In this document: in pieces, positions 4,740 through 61,485 of the stretch
Layout: each line of letters opens with the position of its first letter
Numbering within the stretch: the first letter of the stretch is position 1
Origin: a virus
DNA: 64,000 bases
Reading direction: 5' to 3' (one strand)
Virus record (IMG/VR): IMGVR_UViG_3300024581_002488
Coordinates: 3,064-67,063 of that record
The notes under the pieces: generated by a model
Databases searched by the model: none
Seen by the model: only the letters and a program-made list of their open reading frames with translations
Told to the model about the DNA's origin: nothing
Made by a program: the position numbers and the translations under genes

Positions 4740-4898
4740 ATGACAGACCAAGATTGGTTCGTGTTAGTTATGTGGGGCTGCACCTTTGGCTTGGTTGCAG
4801 CCGCTGCTATTATGGGTATCGCCATTGGTAGAGCGATGAATCGCATTAAGAAGGAAGCACTCCTTCGTCGACTGAAGCAGGAGAACAAAGATGGCTAA
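4740..4898 (+). CDS. 52-aa single-TM peptide
   Basis: MTDQDWFVLVMWGCTFGLVAAAAIMGIAIGRAMNRIKKEALLRRLKQENKDG; AAGGAG RBS. Confidence 0.7.
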   Translation: MTDQDWFVLVMWGCTFGLVAAAAIMGIAIGRAMNRIKKEALLRRLKQENKDG

Positions 4899-5319
4899 AG
4901 GACCAGGCACCTACTTATATGTAGGCTTACGTGCACAGCTTGTCAACTTTGACAAGTATGACGCTAAAGACTTGATAGACCAGGTTAACAGAATGCGCGC
5001 TCCGCATTGCACCCTCATGTATGCAAAGATTGAAGGCAAGAGCAAGGTGTTCCACTCTCGCAGTGAAGTCGCGTACGCTACGGGTATTGTTGACGTGGTC
5101 TATATCCCTCATGCCGACTGCACCTGTTTAATCCTCGAGAAGACGCGTGACTTGGTCAAGCGCCATCGTTACTTTGCGGATATGGGTCTAGACCTGGGTT
5201 ACGAGTTTGACCCTCATGTGACAGTATGTCAAGGCAATCAGGTTAAATTATTCCAAGCTCTTATTGGGGTTGAAGTTAATCTGAATGACGAATACATCCA
5301 AGTTATTGTAAAGGAGTAG
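4891..5319 (+). CDS. acb1: 2H phosphodiesterase, Acb1 / T4 gp57B-like anti-CBASS nuclease
   Basis: Two HxT motifs (HCTLMY, PHVTV); LYV near N-terminus, RHRYF..MG, C-terminal LNDEY parallel T4 57B. Confidence 0.8.
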   Translation: MAKGPGTYLYVGLRAQLVNFDKYDAKDLIDQVNRMRAPHCTLMYAKIEGKSKVFHSRSEVAYATGIVDVVYIPHADCTCLILEKTRDLVKRHRYFADMGLDLGYEFDPHVTVCQGNQVKLFQALIGVEVNLNDEYIQVIVKE

Positions 5320-36761: not shown

Positions 36762-37120
36762 TGCGATGCGTAAATATTGAAAGTCCCTTCGCAGGCAACT
36801 GGGAAGAAAACCTCCGCTATTTACGGGCTTGTATGCAAGACTGCCTTTTAAGAGGCGAAGCCCCATTTGCGAGTCATGCGCTATATACTCAGGAAGGCGT
36901 ATTGAATGACGAAATCCCTGCACAACGTCGCCTAGGCATGGATGCAGGCTTTGAGATTAACTCTCGTTTGGACGCAACCGTGGTCTATACGGATTTAGGC
37001 ATTTCGAAAGGCATGGAAGAAGGTATTGAGCGAGCGTTGGATGATGGCCGACCGGTCGAATATCGAACGCTCCTCGGCTGGAATCTGGAGCTAAGCACCT
37101 GGCAATACGGCACCGATTAA
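36761..37120 (+). CDS. nucleoside deoxyribosyltransferase-like small protein
   Basis: VNIESPFAG...GEAPFASHALY...VYTDLGISKGMEEGIERA pattern. Confidence 0.65.
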   Translation: MRCVNIESPFAGNWEENLRYLRACMQDCLLRGEAPFASHALYTQEGVLNDEIPAQRRLGMDAGFEINSRLDATVVYTDLGISKGMEEGIERALDDGRPVEYRTLLGWNLELSTWQYGTD

Positions 37121-37578
37121 TGACGTCTTTTGCATATTAAATCAAGGGCATGGTTTTCGACTATCTTGCATACTCGGGCTAAAATAGCTGCTAAATCGTG
37201 CCCTTTACAAATACTTATAAGCCCTAGTTCTATATACTCAACACCTTCTCTAAGTCTAGGTCCATAGGCGCTATTGACCACGTAATATTCAGCTTTTGCT
37301 CCACTGCCTACTTGAATCAAATAGTGAGTAATACAGCCTGCTGTGCGCTTCTTGCGGTGCCATTGGATTTGCCCTTTACGGATGTGCCTCAAGGCTATGA
37401 CCCCTTTCTTAGGCATAGGAGCGCATTTAAGCTCTAGCCACACATCGATATTACCACGAGATAGGACTAAATCAGCGGTGCCATTGCCACTACTGTTTTC
37501 AATACGCTCGTGGAACCAGCTTTTAGGCTTCTGCTTCACACATTTACTGCTTAGGGTCTTTTCGGCCGTTGCGCTCAT
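37117..37578 (-). CDS. PD-(D/E)XK nuclease (VRR-NUC / Holliday-junction resolvase-like)
   Basis: RIEN..GNGTADL...WLELK...Q..W motif. Confidence 0.85.
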   Translation of the reverse strand: MSATAEKTLSSKCVKQKPKSWFHERIENSSGNGTADLVLSRGNIDVWLELKCAPMPKKGVIALRHIRKGQIQWHRKKRTAGCITHYLIQVGSGAKAEYYVVNSAYGPRLREGVEYIELGLISICKGHDLAAILARVCKIVENHALDLICKRRH

Positions 37579-38520: not shown

Positions 38521-38955
38521 CTAATCTCCGAATTCAATTGCTGCCATGTAGTTACGTGCCAGGCGTTCAACTTCCTGACATCGCTCAACGGTAAACATAC
38601 CGATGTGAGTCATAGCGGGAGTTAAACCAAGTTGTTTTGAAAGCCAAGCGTACGCCTGCGGTCGTGACATATGCCCTTCACGCCAAATACGGTCGAAGGC
38701 ACGGTGCGCTTGAGACTTAGCCCAGCGGAGCTTTTCGTCTGCTAAACGCCCCAGAGGGATAATTGTTCCTTTGTGCGTTCCAACGTACGCTCTTTCGTGC
38801 GGTCGGAAGTGAGTTCCTTCACACAAGTAGAAGTTCAAGTACGCTAGGTCTTTACGGTGAGGATAGATTTCATTGCCTTTCACCAGGCGCGCCACACTGT
38901 CACAGTAAGGACAACGTACTGGGTCAACTTGTCGCTTATTACGTCTTTTACCCAT
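38521..38955 (-). CDS. zinc-finger protein (DUF3268-like)
   Basis: CPYC...YLC...YVGTH..T..PLGRLAD..LR..K..AH..FD..W...R..AY.WL..LG....HIGMF. Confidence 0.88.
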   Translation of the reverse strand: MGKRRNKRQVDPVRCPYCDSVARLVKGNEIYPHRKDLAYLNFYLCEGTHFRPHERAYVGTHKGTIIPLGRLADEKLRWAKSQAHRAFDRIWREGHMSRPQAYAWLSKQLGLTPAMTHIGMFTVERCQEVERLARNYMAAIEFGD

Positions 38956-38958
38956 AAT

Positions 38959-39120
38959 CTACCTCCAACTTAAATACTTTTGATGAGTTCGAGCTACACG
39001 GCCATCTTCAAACATGATGGCAAACATCTTGCAATGGGTGCACCAGCCAATTAGATGCACTTCTGTAGGAGTAGCATGCTTATTAAGTATCAGCACCCAT
39101 CGCGGAGTTAAACAGTTCAT
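38959..39120 (-). CDS. 53-aa hypothetical protein
   Basis: Manual translation MNCLTPRWVL...CTHCKMF...KYLSWR; ATGA-coupled to the deaminase. Confidence 0.6.
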   Translation of the reverse strand: MNCLTPRWVLILNKHATPTEVHLIGWCTHCKMFAIMFEDGRVARTHQKYLSWR

Positions 39121-39575
39121 ATGTAGATAACCTTTACATCAGCTTCTTGTAAGTATGATAGCGCCTTTTGAAGGTCTTTAAACCTAGAACTCTGCCTATC
39201 GTGCCCTTTCGAAGGACTGTGAATGATTACCGCCGCAATGCCGTTTGGGATGATGTGGTCAATCACACATCGAACGCACGGCGAGCGAGTCACAAATAAG
39301 TAGCAACCTCGTACGTTAAACGCAGCGTTACTAAGCGCATTCGCTTCGGCATGACGCATTAACTCGTTCTTCAGCGCTTTGTCGTTGAGACGCTCTGTCG
39401 TGTCTGCAATGCCTGCTGGAAAACCGTTGAAACCTAGGGAGAATTGCCTAAACGAAGGAGGAGCCACACAGGCTCCAACTCCGACTTTAGGGTCTTTACT
39501 CCACTCCTTGGCTTCAAGCGCGAGATTCATCCCGCGTTGAAGCCATTTAGAGTCTGAGAGTTTGACCTCATTCAT
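39117..39575 (-). CDS. dcd: dCMP deaminase
   Basis: WSKDP..VGA..A...GFNGFPAG...HAEANA...PCVRC; ATGA-coupled to the TS homolog. Confidence 0.92.
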   Translation of the reverse strand: MNEVKLSDSKWLQRGMNLALEAKEWSKDPKVGVGACVAPPSFRQFSLGFNGFPAGIADTTERLNDKALKNELMRHAEANALSNAAFNVRGCYLFVTRSPCVRCVIDHIIPNGIAAVIIHSPSKGHDRQSSRFKDLQKALSYLQEADVKVIYI

Positions 39576-40582
39576 ACTGCTACCTCCGGTCGTTGAGCTA
39601 ACCCTGGCATGATACAATTACGAGCGCCTTCGCCCACCATGCCGACAAACTCATTGGAATGCCCCGTGATTTCGCTAACTGACCAGCCTGGTAATTTAGG
39701 AGCCATGGTTTGGCCTGTCGTCATTTCACTAGTAATCCATGAGCGCTTATGTTCACGGTAGTGTCGCATAGCTTCTTGAGCTAGCTCCACATGATTGTCA
39801 TACATATGCGGATTGCCTAAGAAGGTTGACATACTACCATGGTCTAAGTTGGCAAGCATGCACAACTTTTCATGTAGGACAGGGTCTGAATTCGGGCTAC
39901 TGATAAGCTCGTACGTCGCTCTTTGACGAATTTCGTGCACTAATGCATCTACTACGTAAGCAGTGCACATAATGTCGTACGGCAAGCCTACGTACAAATC
40001 TGAAGAGCGAATAAAGTAGCTACACATTAATTTGCCATTAACAATGTAGAAGCTCATTGCGAAAGGACACGGAACATTCTTTGTACCCATGTTCATAAGG
40101 CCATCGTCGCCTGGGTCCCAAGCACAAAGCACAGTGCGGCGGTTTGACGGGTCTTTCATCAGACACTGTACAAGGTCTTCAACTTGGTCACGACCGAAGT
40201 GCTTACGCCAGCGATAGCCATAAGCTGCTTTAATCGTTTTGCCATCATTTTCAGTGAAGTCTTTCCAGATGCCGCAGTATTGCTCAATGAAGGTTGAGTC
40301 TTGTTCACCGCGAAAGAACCATGCACACTCAGCGGCGGCAGTCTTCGGGTAGAAGTTGCGAAGCATTGACAAAGGCAAGTACTCCGAGAGTTTGAAACTA
40401 AAGCCAATGCCGCTCGTAAATGTATGACAGATTTGACCTGTACGCTCATTTCTAACGGCTTGAAGCTTGCTAGAATCTACATTCAGCAAGCGAACTGTTT
40501 GATTGATAACTTCAAAGTAGAGCTCATCAAAGCCTTTATTAGCTTGACAGTCTACAGTTGGCATCATTAATTGACTATTCAT
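39572..40582 (-). CDS. thymidylate-synthase-superfamily enzyme with Asp at the specificity site (possible dCMP methyl/hydroxymethyl transferase)
   Basis: AYGYRWR, DP.NRR, PCP, RSSDLYVGLPYD, HMYDNH. Confidence 0.85.
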   Translation of the reverse strand: MNSQLMMPTVDCQANKGFDELYFEVINQTVRLLNVDSSKLQAVRNERTGQICHTFTSGIGFSFKLSEYLPLSMLRNFYPKTAAAECAWFFRGEQDSTFIEQYCGIWKDFTENDGKTIKAAYGYRWRKHFGRDQVEDLVQCLMKDPSNRRTVLCAWDPGDDGLMNMGTKNVPCPFAMSFYIVNGKLMCSYFIRSSDLYVGLPYDIMCTAYVVDALVHEIRQRATYELISSPNSDPVLHEKLCMLANLDHGSMSTFLGNPHMYDNHVELAQEAMRHYREHKRSWITSEMTTGQTMAPKLPGWSVSEITGHSNEFVGMVGEGARNCIMPGLAQRPEVAV

Positions 40583-41307
40583 TATCGTGCTCCAATAGCC
40601 GGGAATGCTTCAGGGTTCATTAACCATTCAGCATAGAAGTTACTATAGTTCACCAGGTCAAGCACAGAGTCTAATATGCTCTCATTGTTGACTTCACCTT
40701 TGAACTTGTCAGGGTTGAGGTTTTTCAGACGCTCAATCTTCATGTGCAGCATTTGCAGGAAGCTTGTGTGTCCGAATGGGAAGTAGACATTCCAATGACC
40801 GTAATCATTATCTTTCTTAGCATGTAGCTTAGCCACATGAATAGCGACAGGCGACAAGCTGAACACCCAATCGTGGTTAGGCGGCTGCCAACCTTCAGGT
40901 TTGACAGCATCATTGCCACCAGATTCAGGACGTTTAGCCAACTTGCCTTTCTTCTTAGCCAGGTTAGCTTGGATAATATCTTCAAAGCAGTGACCTGCAG
41001 GGACATTCATCTCAAGCACCGCACCAAGGCCGAAAACATCCATGTCTAGGAAGGCATCGATAACTTCACCATGGTCACCACGCTGGTATGCCGCAATAGC
41101 TTCTTCAAGCTCTTCAAGGCAGGCTTTCACACGGAACATAAAACGTTCAGGTTTTAAAGGTACAACACCACTATCATCAGCTTTAAGGTCGAGTACTGCA
41201 CCATTAAAGTCAGCAGTGCGCTCATAACATTCAGTTAGTAGGCCCTGCACTCGCATAATTTCCATATAGAGTTCTGCTTCTTGCTGGGGAGTTAAAACAT
41301 TATTCAT
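40582..41307 (-). CDS. MazG/DR2231-like NTP pyrophosphohydrolase fused to a DUF1599/Nmad1-like domain
   Basis: EELEE...EVIDAFLD...QANLAK...KPEGWQPP, then KKDNDYG...K..RL...ES..D...DL.NY. Confidence 0.82.
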   Translation of the reverse strand: MNNVLTPQQEAELYMEIMRVQGLLTECYERTADFNGAVLDLKADDSGVVPLKPERFMFRVKACLEELEEAIAAYQRGDHGEVIDAFLDMDVFGLGAVLEMNVPAGHCFEDIIQANLAKKKGKLAKRPESGGNDAVKPEGWQPPNHDWVFSLSPVAIHVAKLHAKKDNDYGHWNVYFPFGHTSFLQMLHMKIERLKNLNPDKFKGEVNNESILDSVLDLVNYSNFYAEWLMNPEAFPAIGAR

Positions 41308-41386
41308 TGACTGTCTCCGTTAACGAAATAGACCTGATAATTATATCAGGTCTTTAATAGCTTTTATCAAACGATTGGCCCTGCGA

Positions 41387-42003: not shown

Positions 42004-42723
42004 CTAGTTTAGGATGTCAAATTCCCAAGGCTCAACACCTTCAGGAACAACAGTTTTAACGCAGTCACCCACGATGTCATAACCCCAACCTTGGTCTCGG
42101 TTTGCACATGATAAATGACTTAATACGTTTGAGCGGCTCATGTCAAATTTAGACATACACTCAACGATAGGTTGCGGAGTATCCTGTAAGAAGAACTCGC
42201 AAACCATACCGCGCTTACTTTGTTTCTTCAATGGCTTAAAACCTTCAGGATTTACTTCTTTACCAGCTGAGCGCTGCTTCTTCGGCTTTTGAATGATAAT
42301 GCCAGAAACATCTTCACCATTCGCCTCCATAGCGCCCACAGCTTCTGCCGTCATTACTTTCGGCACTTCAGCACCAAGCTCTTTCATAATGATAGAAGCT
42401 CGAAGCCAATCTTTGTTCATGCCTAGTTTAGCAAAGTGATGCCACTTCTCTAGCAAGAACTCTTTCCAGAATTCGACATCCATGTCGTAACGCTGGCACG
42501 GCTCTTGTCGGCCGTTGTTTAGCACGTTTATTTCCCCGCAGTGGTTGGCTACATCCCAGCCTTGAAAGTTGAATGGGTCGAAGACCAACGAACGCTTAGG
42601 ACCTTGGATAATAAGAGCTCGAGCATATCCGTTGCCAGCAGGCTCTTTAATATGATAGTTCTGCGGTAGAACTTTGTTTGCGTGAGCCCCAGCATAGTAG
42701 ACTCTGATTAATTCAACTTTCAT
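42004..42723 (-). CDS. putative DNA-binding protein with C-terminal winged HTH
   Basis: KRGMVCEFF...CMSKFDMSRSNVLSHL...GWGYDI; ATG 42723 downstream of a TATAAT. Confidence 0.7.
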   Translation of the reverse strand: MKVELIRVYYAGAHANKVLPQNYHIKEPAGNGYARALIIQGPKRSLVFDPFNFQGWDVANHCGEINVLNNGRQEPCQRYDMDVEFWKEFLLEKWHHFAKLGMNKDWLRASIIMKELGAEVPKVMTAEAVGAMEANGEDVSGIIIQKPKKQRSAGKEVNPEGFKPLKKQSKRGMVCEFFLQDTPQPIVECMSKFDMSRSNVLSHLSCANRDQGWGYDIVGDCVKTVVPEGVEPWEFDILN

Positions 42724-60978: not shown

Positions 60979-61485
60979 ATGACTCGTATCAATACACATG
61001 TTCCTATTATCGACGAACACCTTCGTGCTGCTCGCATTGAGTACTGCCGCATCCCTAACAGCGTGCTCAAGTATTTTGATGGCGATTGTATGGAAACCTT
61101 ACATCGCAAGTTGGCTCGTGAGCAACCTCTTCAATACACTGTTCGCACTAATGATAACCCGGCGGGCGGTAAAGGCCACATGCTGTTCTTCTTTGATAAG
61201 CTTATGTTTGTTGAGCAGCAATATCGTGCTGTCTTAGCCGAGTGCGGTCGTCGCGGTTTTGTCAACGATGATTGGTGGCCTTCTGACCGTATCAGCGACA
61301 TTCACCAATTCAACCGCGGTTGGCTTCCTAGCTATCCTGATATAACGCTTTGCAAGACTCGTCAAATTGAACGTATCCCTAAAAAGCCGCATATCTACGG
61401 CCTCCTTGTTACTCGCGAAGAAGCTGAGCTAGCCATAATCGCAGACCGATTACCACGTCGTATCATGGAAGCTATTCATGCGTAA
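60979..61485 (+). CDS. denV: pyrimidine-dimer DNA glycosylase / endonuclease V
   Basis: MTRIN N-terminus, DEHL...E..R, GKGHMLFFFDKL..V..Y.....EC.RRGF, aligned by eye to T4 DenV. Confidence 0.92.
   Translation: MTRINTHVPIIDEHLRAARIEYCRIPNSVLKYFDGDCMETLHRKLAREQPLQYTVRTNDNPAGGKGHMLFFFDKLMFVEQQYRAVLAECGRRGFVNDDWWPSDRISDIHQFNRGWLPSYPDITLCKTRQIERIPKKPHIYGLLVTREEAELAIIADRLPRRIMEAIHA

What the first reader, a model, noticed from the sequence alone, without database searches (positions are those of the whole stretch)
39117..40582. TS homolog with cytosine-type specificity residue coupled to dCMP deaminase: modified-C DNA or an alternative dTMP route
Seen: PCP and RSSDLYVGLPYD. Established: the residue 8 after the RSxD Asp is Asn177 in E. 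coli ThyA (dUMP) and Asp179 in T4 dCMP hydroxymethylase (dCMP), and ThyA has PCH. Here it is Asp and the His is absent, pointing to dCMP as substrate. The gene is ATGA-coupled to a dCMP deaminase, an enzyme class that also acts on some 5-substituted dCMPs. Two inferred options: (a) the virion DNA carries 5mC/5hmC; (b) the pathway runs dCMP -> 5m-dCMP -> dTMP (or 5hm-dCMP -> 5hm-dUMP), i.e. methylation before deamination. No canonical ThyA/ThyX, dNMP kinase or glycosyltransferase is visible in the window.
Basis: partly seen in the sequence, partly recalled or inferred. Interest (0 to 1): 0.8.

Follow-up and report, generated by a model that had tools for sequence, protein, structure and literature searches.

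The report
Xp12-type 5-methylcytosine nucleotide module in phage
An uncultivated 75-kb phage carries the three-gene set (nucleotide pyrophosphatase, cytosine-specific thymidylate-synthase relative, deaminase) already described in phages such as Xp12 that replace cytosine with 5-methylcytosine, so this is a new member of a known system, not a new pathway.

Summary
The 336-aa thymidylate synthase (TS) homologue (39572-40582, - strand) has Asp where E. coli ThyA has Asn177, and Pro where it has His147. Its stop overlaps the start of a dCMP-family zinc deaminase (ATGA).

All three genes, plus two flanking genes, are homologous and syntenic with the module of Xanthomonas phage Xp12 (all C replaced by 5mC), Pseudomonas phage PaMx28 and Achromobacter phage JWT. 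The DNA polymerase also groups with that phage lineage.

All 64 aligned homologues share the same active-site pattern and keep the TS C-terminal tail. The published hydroxymethylase signature and the 5-hydroxy-dCMP signature are both absent.

Best reading: dCTP -> dCMP -> 5-methyl-dCMP, used for DNA, with part of the 5mC nucleotide pool deaminated to thymidine nucleotides.

This scan has also met the same module type on other DNA (98 notes, mostly CPR bacteria).

Verdict: real, well-supported by homology, biochemically untested, low novelty.

The parts
40582..41307 (-). MazG-type (PRA-PH) NTP pyrophosphohydrolase fused to DUF1599 ('nucleotide modification associated domain 1'). Predicted dCTP -> dCMP + PPi step. 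Its stop overlaps the TS start (TAATG).
   Evidence: Pfam PRA-PH at 26.5 bits (cut-off 21.3); DUF1599 at 23.8 bits (cut-off 25). PHROG 18404 hydrolase at E 4e-45 and PHROG 671 nucleotide pyrophosphohydrolase. 38-39% identity over most of its length (about 210 of 241 residues) to the gene directly upstream of the TS homologue in Xp12 (annotated 'HAD hydrolase') and in PaMx28 (gp53). Weak PDB hits to the MazG-like DR2231. Overlap read.
39572..40582 (-). Thymidylate-synthase homologue, predicted dCMP C5-methyltransferase (5-methyl-dCMP synthase). Catalytic Cys172 (40069-40067), Pro173, Asp203 (39976-39974).
   Evidence: 37% identity, E 1.7e-71, to the Xp12 enzyme. AlphaFold model pLDDT 93, TS fold, about 260 alignment columns against the 264-residue E. 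coli TS.
39117..39575 (-). dCMP/dCTP-family zinc deaminase (152 aa from the ATG at 39575). Predicted to deaminate 5-methyl-dC nucleotides to thymidine nucleotides.
   Evidence: Pfam dCMP_cyt_deam_1 at E 7e-13. HAE and PCxxC motifs invariant. 34-39% identity to the Xp12, PaMx28 and JWT deaminases. Best solved relative is the PBCV-1 bifunctional dCMP/dCTP deaminase 7FH4.
39572..39575 (-). ATGA overlap between the TS stop and the deaminase start (translational coupling), preceded by a GGAGG Shine-Dalgarno sequence.
   Evidence: Sequence read.
42004..42723 (-). Conserved neighbour of the module (PHROG 11422). Unknown N-terminal domain plus C-terminal winged helix. Role unknown; not a recognisable kinase.
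   Evidence: PHROG 11422 at E 1e-55. Homologous to Xp12 QNN97218, PaMx28 gp55 and JWT gp37, which hold the same position. Model pLDDT 94.5. Only residues about 160-239 match winged-helix proteins, Z 5.4-7.4.
37117..37578 (-). Small conserved protein (PHROG 2165) at the downstream edge of the syntenic block.
   Evidence: PHROG 2165 at E 1e-17. Homologues downstream of the deaminase in JWT (gp32), PaMx28 (gp48) and Xp12 (QNN97211).
38521..38955 (-). DUF3268 zinc-finger protein that follows the deaminase in this phage and its close relatives. Link to the module unproven.
   Evidence: Pfam DUF3268 at E 1.7e-34. Same position in relatives L010 and L011.

Best explanation
This is an Xp12-type module that acts on free nucleotides to replace cytosine.

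- Step 1, inferred from family and position: the MazG/DUF1599 enzyme hydrolyses dCTP to dCMP. This removes the canonical precursor and feeds the next enzyme.
- Step 2, inferred from active-site residues and homology to a tested enzyme: the TS homologue binds dCMP through Asp203. It transfers the methylene of CH2-THF and then a hydride, giving 5-methyl-dCMP and dihydrofolate.
- Step 3, inferred: host kinases raise 5-methyl-dCMP to the triphosphate, since no phage kinase was found, and the phage family-A polymerase puts it into DNA. The virion DNA then carries 5mC in place of most or all C.
- Step 4, inferred from tested homologues of the family: the translationally coupled deaminase converts part of the 5-methyl-dC nucleotide pool to thymidine nucleotides. 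It may act on the mono- or the triphosphate. The phage then needs no dUMP-type TS of its own.

What is shown here is the gene structure, the residues, the fold, the synteny and the absence of other TS, ThyX or DHFR genes. No enzyme activity or DNA composition was measured.
For: 1. Substrate residues. Asp replaces Asn177 and Pro replaces His147. These two positions are the top discriminators of C-modified phage contigs (PMC8670742). The same section cites earlier mutagenesis showing that Asn-to-Asp turns a canonical TS into a dCMP methylase.

2. Closest named relatives. By tblastn these are Xp12 (5mC phage; 37.6%, E 1e-60), Pamexvirus and Achromobacter phages. The Xp12 enzyme was shown to make 5mdC in vivo (bioRxiv 10.1101/2024.12.05.627091).

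3. Synteny. A five-gene block is homologous to Xp12, PaMx28 and JWT: PHROG 11422, MazG/DUF1599, TS, deaminase, PHROG 2165.

4. Family-wide pattern. In 64 homologues the following are invariant: R21, E58, W80, Phe at W83, Y94, R126, Asn at C-3, P145, C146, R166, S167, D169, Asp at 177, H207 and Y209. Pro at 147 is in 63 of 64. Nearly all also keep a TS-type C-terminal tail; here it is RPEVAV against E. coli APVAI.

5. Methyl rather than hydroxymethyl. The hydroxymethylase signature published for T4 dCH is Asp/Glu at C-3 (D145N is inactive), Ser/Thr at Y-2 and no C-terminal tail, with Val at the W83 position noted as a further difference from TS (PMC6400193). This enzyme has Asn, Ala, a tail and Phe. 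D169 is retained, so it is not a 5-hydroxy-dCMP synthase by the D169N rule (PMC13326640).

6. Fold. The model (pLDDT 93) matches canonical TS over about 260 alignment columns of the 264-residue E. coli TS.

7. Deaminase. The catalytic motifs are intact. The best solved relative is the PBCV-1 dCMP/dCTP deaminase, the same structural neighbour reported for the 5mC-selective mSCD-B5. In that study 70% of deaminases on modified contigs lay within 3 kb of a TS, and PRA-PH was among the top neighbouring domains.

8. Only one TS-family gene and no ThyX in a 96%-complete genome.

9. The cassette is conserved in relatives with 57-59% TS identity. The family-A polymerase is closest to the Xp12/PaMx74/Xoo-sp2 lineage at 47-49%.
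Against: - Identity to the tested Xp12 enzyme is only about 37%.
- The window's clade (336-346 aa) has its own helical insertions and sits on a separate branch. The tree did not resolve its position, and the long-branch T4 and E. coli outgroups were not reliably placed.
- No DHFR is encoded, unlike Xp12 and PaMx28, although a methylase produces dihydrofolate.
- Asn at C-3 is polar, not the bulky hydrophobic residue proposed to exclude water in ThyA.
- No phage kinase for 5-methyl-dCMP was found.
- In the published screen only 5 of 7 deaminase-linked TS homologues gave detectable 5mdC.
- No data on the DNA itself could be obtained.
Confidence: 0.7

Rival explanations
1. The TS homologue is a dCMP hydroxymethylase, as in T4. 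The DNA carries 5hmC, and the deaminase gives dUMP or 5hm-dUMP.
For: Asp at position 177 is shared with T4 gp42. No DHFR is encoded, which fits a reaction that releases THF. The residue at C-3 is polar (Asn). The deaminases in the published screen also deaminated 5hmdC nucleotides.
Against: The published hydroxymethylase signature is absent. C-3 is Asn, and D145N kills T4 dCH. Y-2 is Ala. The TS C-terminal tail is present. Phe, not Val, sits at W83. Xp12 has the same Asn at C-3 and makes 5mdC. Identity to T4 gp42 is only 24% (E 6e-6), against 37% (E 1.7e-71) to Xp12. No glycosyltransferase or other 5hmC-tailoring gene was found.
Confidence: 0.1
2. The TS homologue makes 5-methyl-dCMP for DNA, but the deaminase is an ordinary dCMP deaminase. 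Its dUMP is methylated by the host ThyA, so the reader's option (a) holds without (b).
For: This is how T4 uses its cd gene (established knowledge). The deaminase family as a whole acts on dCMP (Pfam; human DCTD is the second-best PDB hit). 5mC preference is reported as sporadic within the family.
Against: The ATGA coupling to a cytosine-type TS and the 70% versus 6% co-localisation in modified versus unmodified contigs point to a linked role. So do the tested deaminases from such pairs, and the labelling of both 5mC and T from cytosine in Xp12, as cited. A MazG dCTPase plus dCMP methylase would compete with it for dCMP.
Confidence: 0.15
3. The module is only an alternative thymidylate route (dCMP -> 5-methyl-dCMP -> dTMP). 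The virion DNA keeps ordinary cytosine, as this scan proposed for CPR bacteria.
For: Earlier notes of this scan propose this route for cells carrying the same module. Nothing measured here shows 5mC in the DNA.
Against: [quoted passage not shown] The polymerase and the whole replication block belong to that phage lineage. A dCTP-destroying MazG would leave no C precursor other than the methylated one.
Confidence: 0.08
4. It is a canonical dUMP-methylating thymidylate synthase fed by a dCMP deaminase, the textbook pathway.
For: This is the usual annotation of such gene pairs in phage records.
Against: Asn177 and His147 are both replaced, and this holds across the whole family. Published mutagenesis shows that Asn-to-Asp switches specificity to dCMP.
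Confidence: 0.03

Closest known systems
Xanthomonas phage Xp12 module (NTP pyrophosphohydrolase, TS homologue = dCMP methyltransferase, dCMP-family deaminase, DHFR); Pamexvirus/Bosavirus relatives (PaMx28, PaMx74, AXL1)
   Same: Same gene order and homologous proteins for five genes. Same active-site pattern: Asn at C-3, Pro at 147, Phe at 83, Asp at 177, and the C-terminal tail. Related family-A DNA polymerase.
   Different: Only 34-39% protein identity. No DHFR gene. The TS homologue is 336 aa. It has an N-terminal extension and two helical insertions of its own, and it lacks the insertion that Xp12 and PaMx28 carry after the FVEP motif. GC is about 45% against 67% for AXL1, a close Xp12 relative. 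Extra DUF3268 gene after the deaminase.
Achromobacter phage JWT (Steinhofvirus) cassette
   Same: PHROG 11422, pyrophosphohydrolase, TS (Asp177/Pro147), deaminase and PHROG 2165 in the same order, also without DHFR.
   Different: In JWT the pyrophosphohydrolase is shorter (172 aa, no DUF1599 part aligned) and an extra ORF lies between it and the TS. I found no DNA-composition data for JWT.
MetaGPA deaminase/TS pairs, including mSCD-B5 (bioRxiv 10.1101/2024.12.05.627091)
   Same: A deaminase within 3 kb of an Asp177 TS with PRA-PH nearby. The PBCV-1 dCMP/dCTP deaminase is the nearest solved structure in both cases.
   Different: The mSCD-B5 sequence was not compared here, so whether this deaminase shares its strict triphosphate and 5mC preference is unknown.
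T4 dCTPase (gp56) / dCMP hydroxymethylase (gp42) / dCMP deaminase (cd)
   Same: Same logic: destroy dCTP, modify dCMP with a TS homologue carrying Asp at the specificity position, and encode a deaminase.
   Different: T4 gp42 has Asp at C-3, Ser at Y-2 and no C-terminal tail, and it makes 5hmdCMP. T4 also has a separate canonical TS, a dNMP kinase and glucosyltransferases, none of which were found here.

Membership tests
Thymidylate synthase superfamily (PF00303) | Pfam match above cut-off and TS fold | tested here: met
   116 bits against a 24.3 cut-off. AlphaFold model pLDDT 93. Foldseek to E. coli TS: TM 0.74 by target, about 260 alignment columns against 264 residues.
Thymidylate synthase superfamily (PF00303) | Catalytic Cys146, Glu58, Tyr94, and phosphate-binding Arg21/Arg126/Arg166/Ser167 | tested here: met
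   All present here and invariant in the 64 homologues.
Canonical dUMP-methylating ThyA | Asn at position 177 (uracil recognition) and His at 147 | tested here: not met
   Asp203 and Pro173.
Xp12-type dCMP 5-methyltransferase | Asp at 177 and non-His (Pro) at 147 | tested here: met
   identical to Xp12 and PaMx28.
Xp12-type dCMP 5-methyltransferase | TS-type C-terminal tail retained, which seals the active site for hydride transfer | tested here: met
   The protein ends in RPEVAV, against E. coli APVAI and Xp12 PEVIE. T4 gp42 lacks the tail. Role of the tail from PMC6400193.
Xp12-type dCMP 5-methyltransferase | Neighbourhood: NTP pyrophosphohydrolase upstream, dCMP-family deaminase downstream | tested here: met
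Xp12-type dCMP 5-methyltransferase | Product is 5-methyl-dCMP, and virion DNA has 5mC in place of C | not testable with these tools
   Needs an enzyme assay or LC-MS. No sequencing run held enough of the genome to look for any signal.
Xp12-type dCMP 5-methyltransferase | Phage-encoded DHFR next to the deaminase (present in all Pamexvirus members per PMC9206674) | tested here: not met
   No PF00186 match in the 75-kb genome. JWT also has none in the stretch examined. This is an accessory feature, not a catalytic one.
T4-type dCMP hydroxymethylase | Asp/Glu three residues before the catalytic Cys | tested here: not met
   Asn169, invariant in the 64 homologues. The T4 D145N mutant is inactive (PMC6400193).
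T4-type dCMP hydroxymethylase | Ser/Thr two residues before the catalytic Tyr, and no C-terminal tail | tested here: not met
   Ala119; tail present.
5-hydroxy-dCMP synthase (RB69 gp48 type) | Asn at position 169 (D169N) | tested here: not met
   Asp195 retained. Rule from PMC13326640.
dCMP/cytidine zinc deaminase (PF00383) | H-A-E and P-C-x-x-C zinc-binding and catalytic motifs | tested here: met
   48.7 bits against a 25 cut-off. Motifs invariant in the alignment.
5mC-selective deaminase (mSCD type) | Preference for 5-methyl-dC nucleotides over dC nucleotides | not testable with these tools
   Only context and the shared nearest structure (7FH4) support it.
MazG-type all-alpha NTP pyrophosphohydrolase + DUF1599 | Pfam PRA-PH and DUF1599 matches | tested here: inconclusive
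   PRA-PH is above its cut-off (26.5 against 21.3). DUF1599 is just below (23.8 against 25). Homology over most of the protein to the Xp12 and PaMx28 proteins. Substrate not testable.

The most novel reading that the evidence does not exclude
The 336-346-aa subfamily to which this enzyme belongs has its own two helical insertions, no partner DHFR and no cultured representative. It might make a product other than 5-methyl-dCMP, or it might serve only as a methylate-then-deaminate thymidylate route without putting 5mC into DNA. It might also depend on a so far unrecognised kinase or on the conserved PHROG 11422 winged-helix protein as a new module component.
Probability: 0.12. Interest if true: 0.45.

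Novelty: new member of a known kind. Interest (0 to 1): 0.25.

Why it matters
- It predicts that this uncultivated aquatic-type phage lineage has DNA with 5mC in place of C. That would affect restriction sensitivity, sequencing and cloning of its DNA, and host-defence interactions.
- It adds a divergent, DHFR-less branch to the Xp12-type dCMP methyltransferase family.
- Its deaminase is one more candidate for the 5mC-selective deaminases now being developed for methylation sequencing.
- The pathway idea itself is already published, so the gain is incremental.

Tried and rejected
- Megablast of the module against the phage collection: no match.
- Maximum-likelihood tree with E. coli ThyA and T4 gp42 as outgroups. 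The outgroup branches were very long (4.7 and 10) and unreliably placed, and the bootstrap had not converged. The tree therefore cannot say whether the window's clade is inside or sister to the Xp12 clade. I relied on residue patterns and synteny instead.
- My first column mapping of E. coli L143 was shifted by gaps and suggested a variable residue. Counting from the Cys in alignments A1 and A2 shows an invariant Asn.
- Sequencing-run search: only small shares (0.12 or less) in Logan contigs, no RNA holder listed and no raw reads. No test of modification or expression was possible, and read laying was not used.
- Promoter and terminator scan of 36.5-45.5 kb: counts no higher than in shuffled sequence.
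- Search for a kinase: Walker-A patterns occur only in the terminase and the primase-helicase, plus non-kinase contexts. No Thymidylate_kin or dNK match.
- The PHROG 11422 neighbour was considered as a hidden kinase or a modified-base reader. Only its C-terminal winged helix is recognisable. The N-terminal 155 residues gave no match in the whole-model searches of Foldseek PDB, VIA wide and AFDB, and that domain was not searched alone.
- IMG/VR pattern scan: one close relative only (86% identity).
Full report
**Where the window lies.** The window is bases 3064-67063 of a 75,257-bp IMG/VR virus record that CheckV estimates to be 96% complete. The finding sits in a minus-strand replication and nucleotide block. 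That block also encodes:
- a Prim-Pol/DUF5906 primase-helicase;
- a DUF2800 nuclease;
- an Enc34-type SSB;
- a family-A DNA polymerase;
- RNase H;
- an SNF2 helicase.

**Observation.**
- ORF 39572-40582 (-) is a 336-aa protein matching Pfam Thymidylat_synt at E 2.2e-33.
- Translation of 39974-40072 (-) shows PCP followed by RSSDLYVGLPYD.
- phmmer alignments to solved TS structures, and a MAFFT alignment with E. coli ThyA and T4 gp42, place Cys172 on Cys146, Pro173 on His147 and Asp203 on Asn177 (T4 Asp179).
- The TS stop and the start of the next gene overlap as ATGA, with GGAGG upstream.
- That next gene (39117-39575) is a 152-aa dCMP_cyt_deam_1 protein with intact HAE and PCxxC motifs.
It is a MazG-type PRA-PH pyrophosphohydrolase fused to DUF1599, the 'nucleotide modification associated domain 1'.

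**Relatives.**
- By tblastn against 50,697 phage records the best named relatives of the TS homologue are Xanthomonas phage Xp12 (37.6%, E 1e-60), other Bosavirus and Pamexvirus phages, Achromobacter Steinhofvirus phages and Rhodobacter phages.
- Xp12 is the classical phage with all C replaced by 5mC.
- The annotated neighbourhoods of Xp12, PaMx28 and JWT, compared by blastp, give five homologous genes in the same order:
  - a PHROG 11422 protein;
  - the pyrophosphohydrolase (38-39% identity over most of its length; mis-annotated 'HAD hydrolase' in Xp12);
  - the TS homologue;
  - the deaminase (34-39%);
  - a small PHROG 2165 protein.
- Xp12 and PaMx28 add a DHFR. This phage and JWT do not.
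- The family-A polymerase is closest (47-49%) to the same Xp12/PaMx74/Xoo-sp2 lineage.
- Uncultivated relatives with 57-59% TS identity keep the cassette pyrophosphohydrolase, TS, deaminase and DUF3268.

**Which reaction?** Published rules allow a residue-level test.
- *Substrate.* The MetaGPA study found positions 177 and 147 to be the two most discriminating TS positions between cytosine-modified and unmodified phage contigs. It recalls that Asn177Asp converts TS into a dCMP methylase (PMC8670742).
- *Hydroxymethylase signature.* The T4 dCH ternary-complex paper defines it as Asp/Glu three residues before the Cys (D145N is inactive) with a Ser/Thr two residues before the catalytic Tyr. It also reports that dCH lacks the C-terminal tail and has Val at the Trp83 position (PMC6400193).
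- *5-hydroxy-dCMP synthases.* The 2026 NAR paper adds that these enzymes carry D169N (PMC13326640).
- *This enzyme.* In a 64-sequence alignment of this protein and its homologues, Asn at C-3, Phe at the Trp83 position, D169 and Asp at 177 are invariant, and Pro at 147 is in 63 of 64. Y-2 is usually Ala (46 of 64, Ala here). Nearly all end in a TS-like tail, [RK]PE[VIL][VIA]x; here it is RPEVAV against E. coli APVAI.
- Xp12 has the same Asn at C-3, and its enzyme was shown to produce 5mdC in vivo.
- The AlphaFold model (pLDDT 93) superposes on E. coli TS over about 260 alignment columns of its 264 residues.

The enzyme is therefore most likely a dCMP methyltransferase, not a hydroxymethylase or hydroxylase.

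**Caveats on the reaction.**
- Identity to the tested enzyme is only 37%.
- The window's clade has its own insertions and was not resolved in the tree.
- No DHFR is encoded.

**The deaminase and the route to thymidine.**
- The 2024 bioRxiv preprint (10.1101/2024.12.05.627091) reports that 70% of dCMP-family deaminases on modified contigs lie within 3 kb of a TS homologue, against 6% on unmodified contigs. PRA-PH is among the top neighbouring domains.
- In that study seven tested deaminases deaminated 5hmdC nucleotides in vivo, and five of their seven TS partners made 5mdC.
- One deaminase, mSCD-B5, is selective for 5mdCTP and is inactive on dCMP and 5mdCMP.
- The authors propose that 5mC phages make dTTP by deaminating 5mdCTP, consistent with old isotope labelling in Xp12.
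It coexists with option (a).
- The nearest solved relative of the deaminase here is the PBCV-1 bifunctional dCMP/dCTP deaminase, the same neighbour reported for mSCD-B5.
- Its real substrate preference cannot be told from sequence. An ordinary dCMP deaminase feeding the host ThyA remains a fair rival.

**What else the genome has or lacks.**
- No second TS, ThyX, DHFR, C5 DNA methyltransferase, TET/JBP dioxygenase, thymidylate kinase or dNK.
- No small Walker-A protein.
- No glycosyltransferase among about 60 ORFs scanned.
- So no further tailoring of the base is indicated, and phosphorylation of 5-methyl-dCMP would fall to host kinases or to an unrecognised protein.
- The conserved PHROG 11422 neighbour was folded (pLDDT 94.5). 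It shows only a C-terminal winged helix (Z 5.4-7.4) and an unassigned N-terminal domain. Nothing suggests that it is a kinase.

**Direct evidence on the DNA.** None could be obtained, because no public run holds more than 12% of the sampled words of this region.

**Site avoidance.**
- A composition check showed an almost complete lack of GATC (3 sites against about 226 expected) and no GATATC (0 against 17).
- Other C-containing palindromes are only mildly depleted, like the AT-only ones.
- This is compatible with a modification that protects most C-containing sites, but it proves nothing.

**Novelty.** The residue signature, the TS-deaminase-PRA-PH linkage and the methylate-then-deaminate route to thymidine are all published, and the module's home is exactly this kind of siphophage. 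This scan has also recorded the same module type 98 times on other DNA, mostly in CPR bacteria, where it is the more surprising find. What is new here is modest:
- a divergent, longer TS subfamily with no cultured member;
- a DHFR-less version of the module;
- a new phage lineage predicted to carry 5mC DNA.

I rate it a new member of a known kind, with interest 0.25.

Noticed in passing
whole genome (window 1-64000 and flanks): GATC occurs 3 times against about 226 expected (ratio 0.01) and GATATC 0 times against 17 expected. Other 4-mer palindromes are only mildly low.
   Followed up: partly
window 42004-42723 (-): PHROG 11422 protein, always just upstream of the pyrophosphohydrolase in Xp12, PaMx28, JWT and here. 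High-confidence model with a C-terminal winged helix and an N-terminal beta-rich domain of about 155 aa that gave no structural match in whole-model searches. 128 cluster representatives in the 1.84-billion-protein library.
   Followed up: partly
window 60979-61485 (+): 168-aa protein matching Pyr_excise (pyrimidine-dimer DNA glycosylase, T4 endonuclease V type), E 1e-5.
   Followed up: no
window 4891-5319 (+): 142-aa protein matching the anti-CBASS phosphodiesterase family Acb1, E 9e-7 and 29.2 bits against a 27 cut-off.
   Followed up: no
L004 91-588 (genome 91-588, outside the window): RadC-like JAB domain protein, E 1.5e-40.
   Followed up: no
window 41330-41353 (-): 10-bp-stem hairpin in the short gap between the 201-aa unknown gene and the MazG gene. 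The overall count of terminator-like sites is not above shuffled sequence.
   Followed up: no
L001 5171-5944 (Xp12 QNN97215): The Xp12 gene annotated 'hydrolase (HAD superfamily)' is homologous over most of its length to the MazG/DUF1599 pyrophosphohydrolase here and in PaMx28, so the public annotation looks wrong.
   Followed up: partly
window 38959-39120 (-): 53-aa ORF whose ATG overlaps the deaminase stop by 4 bases. Relatives L010 and L011 have only about 146 nt in that gap, so the ORF is probably not conserved.
   Followed up: partly
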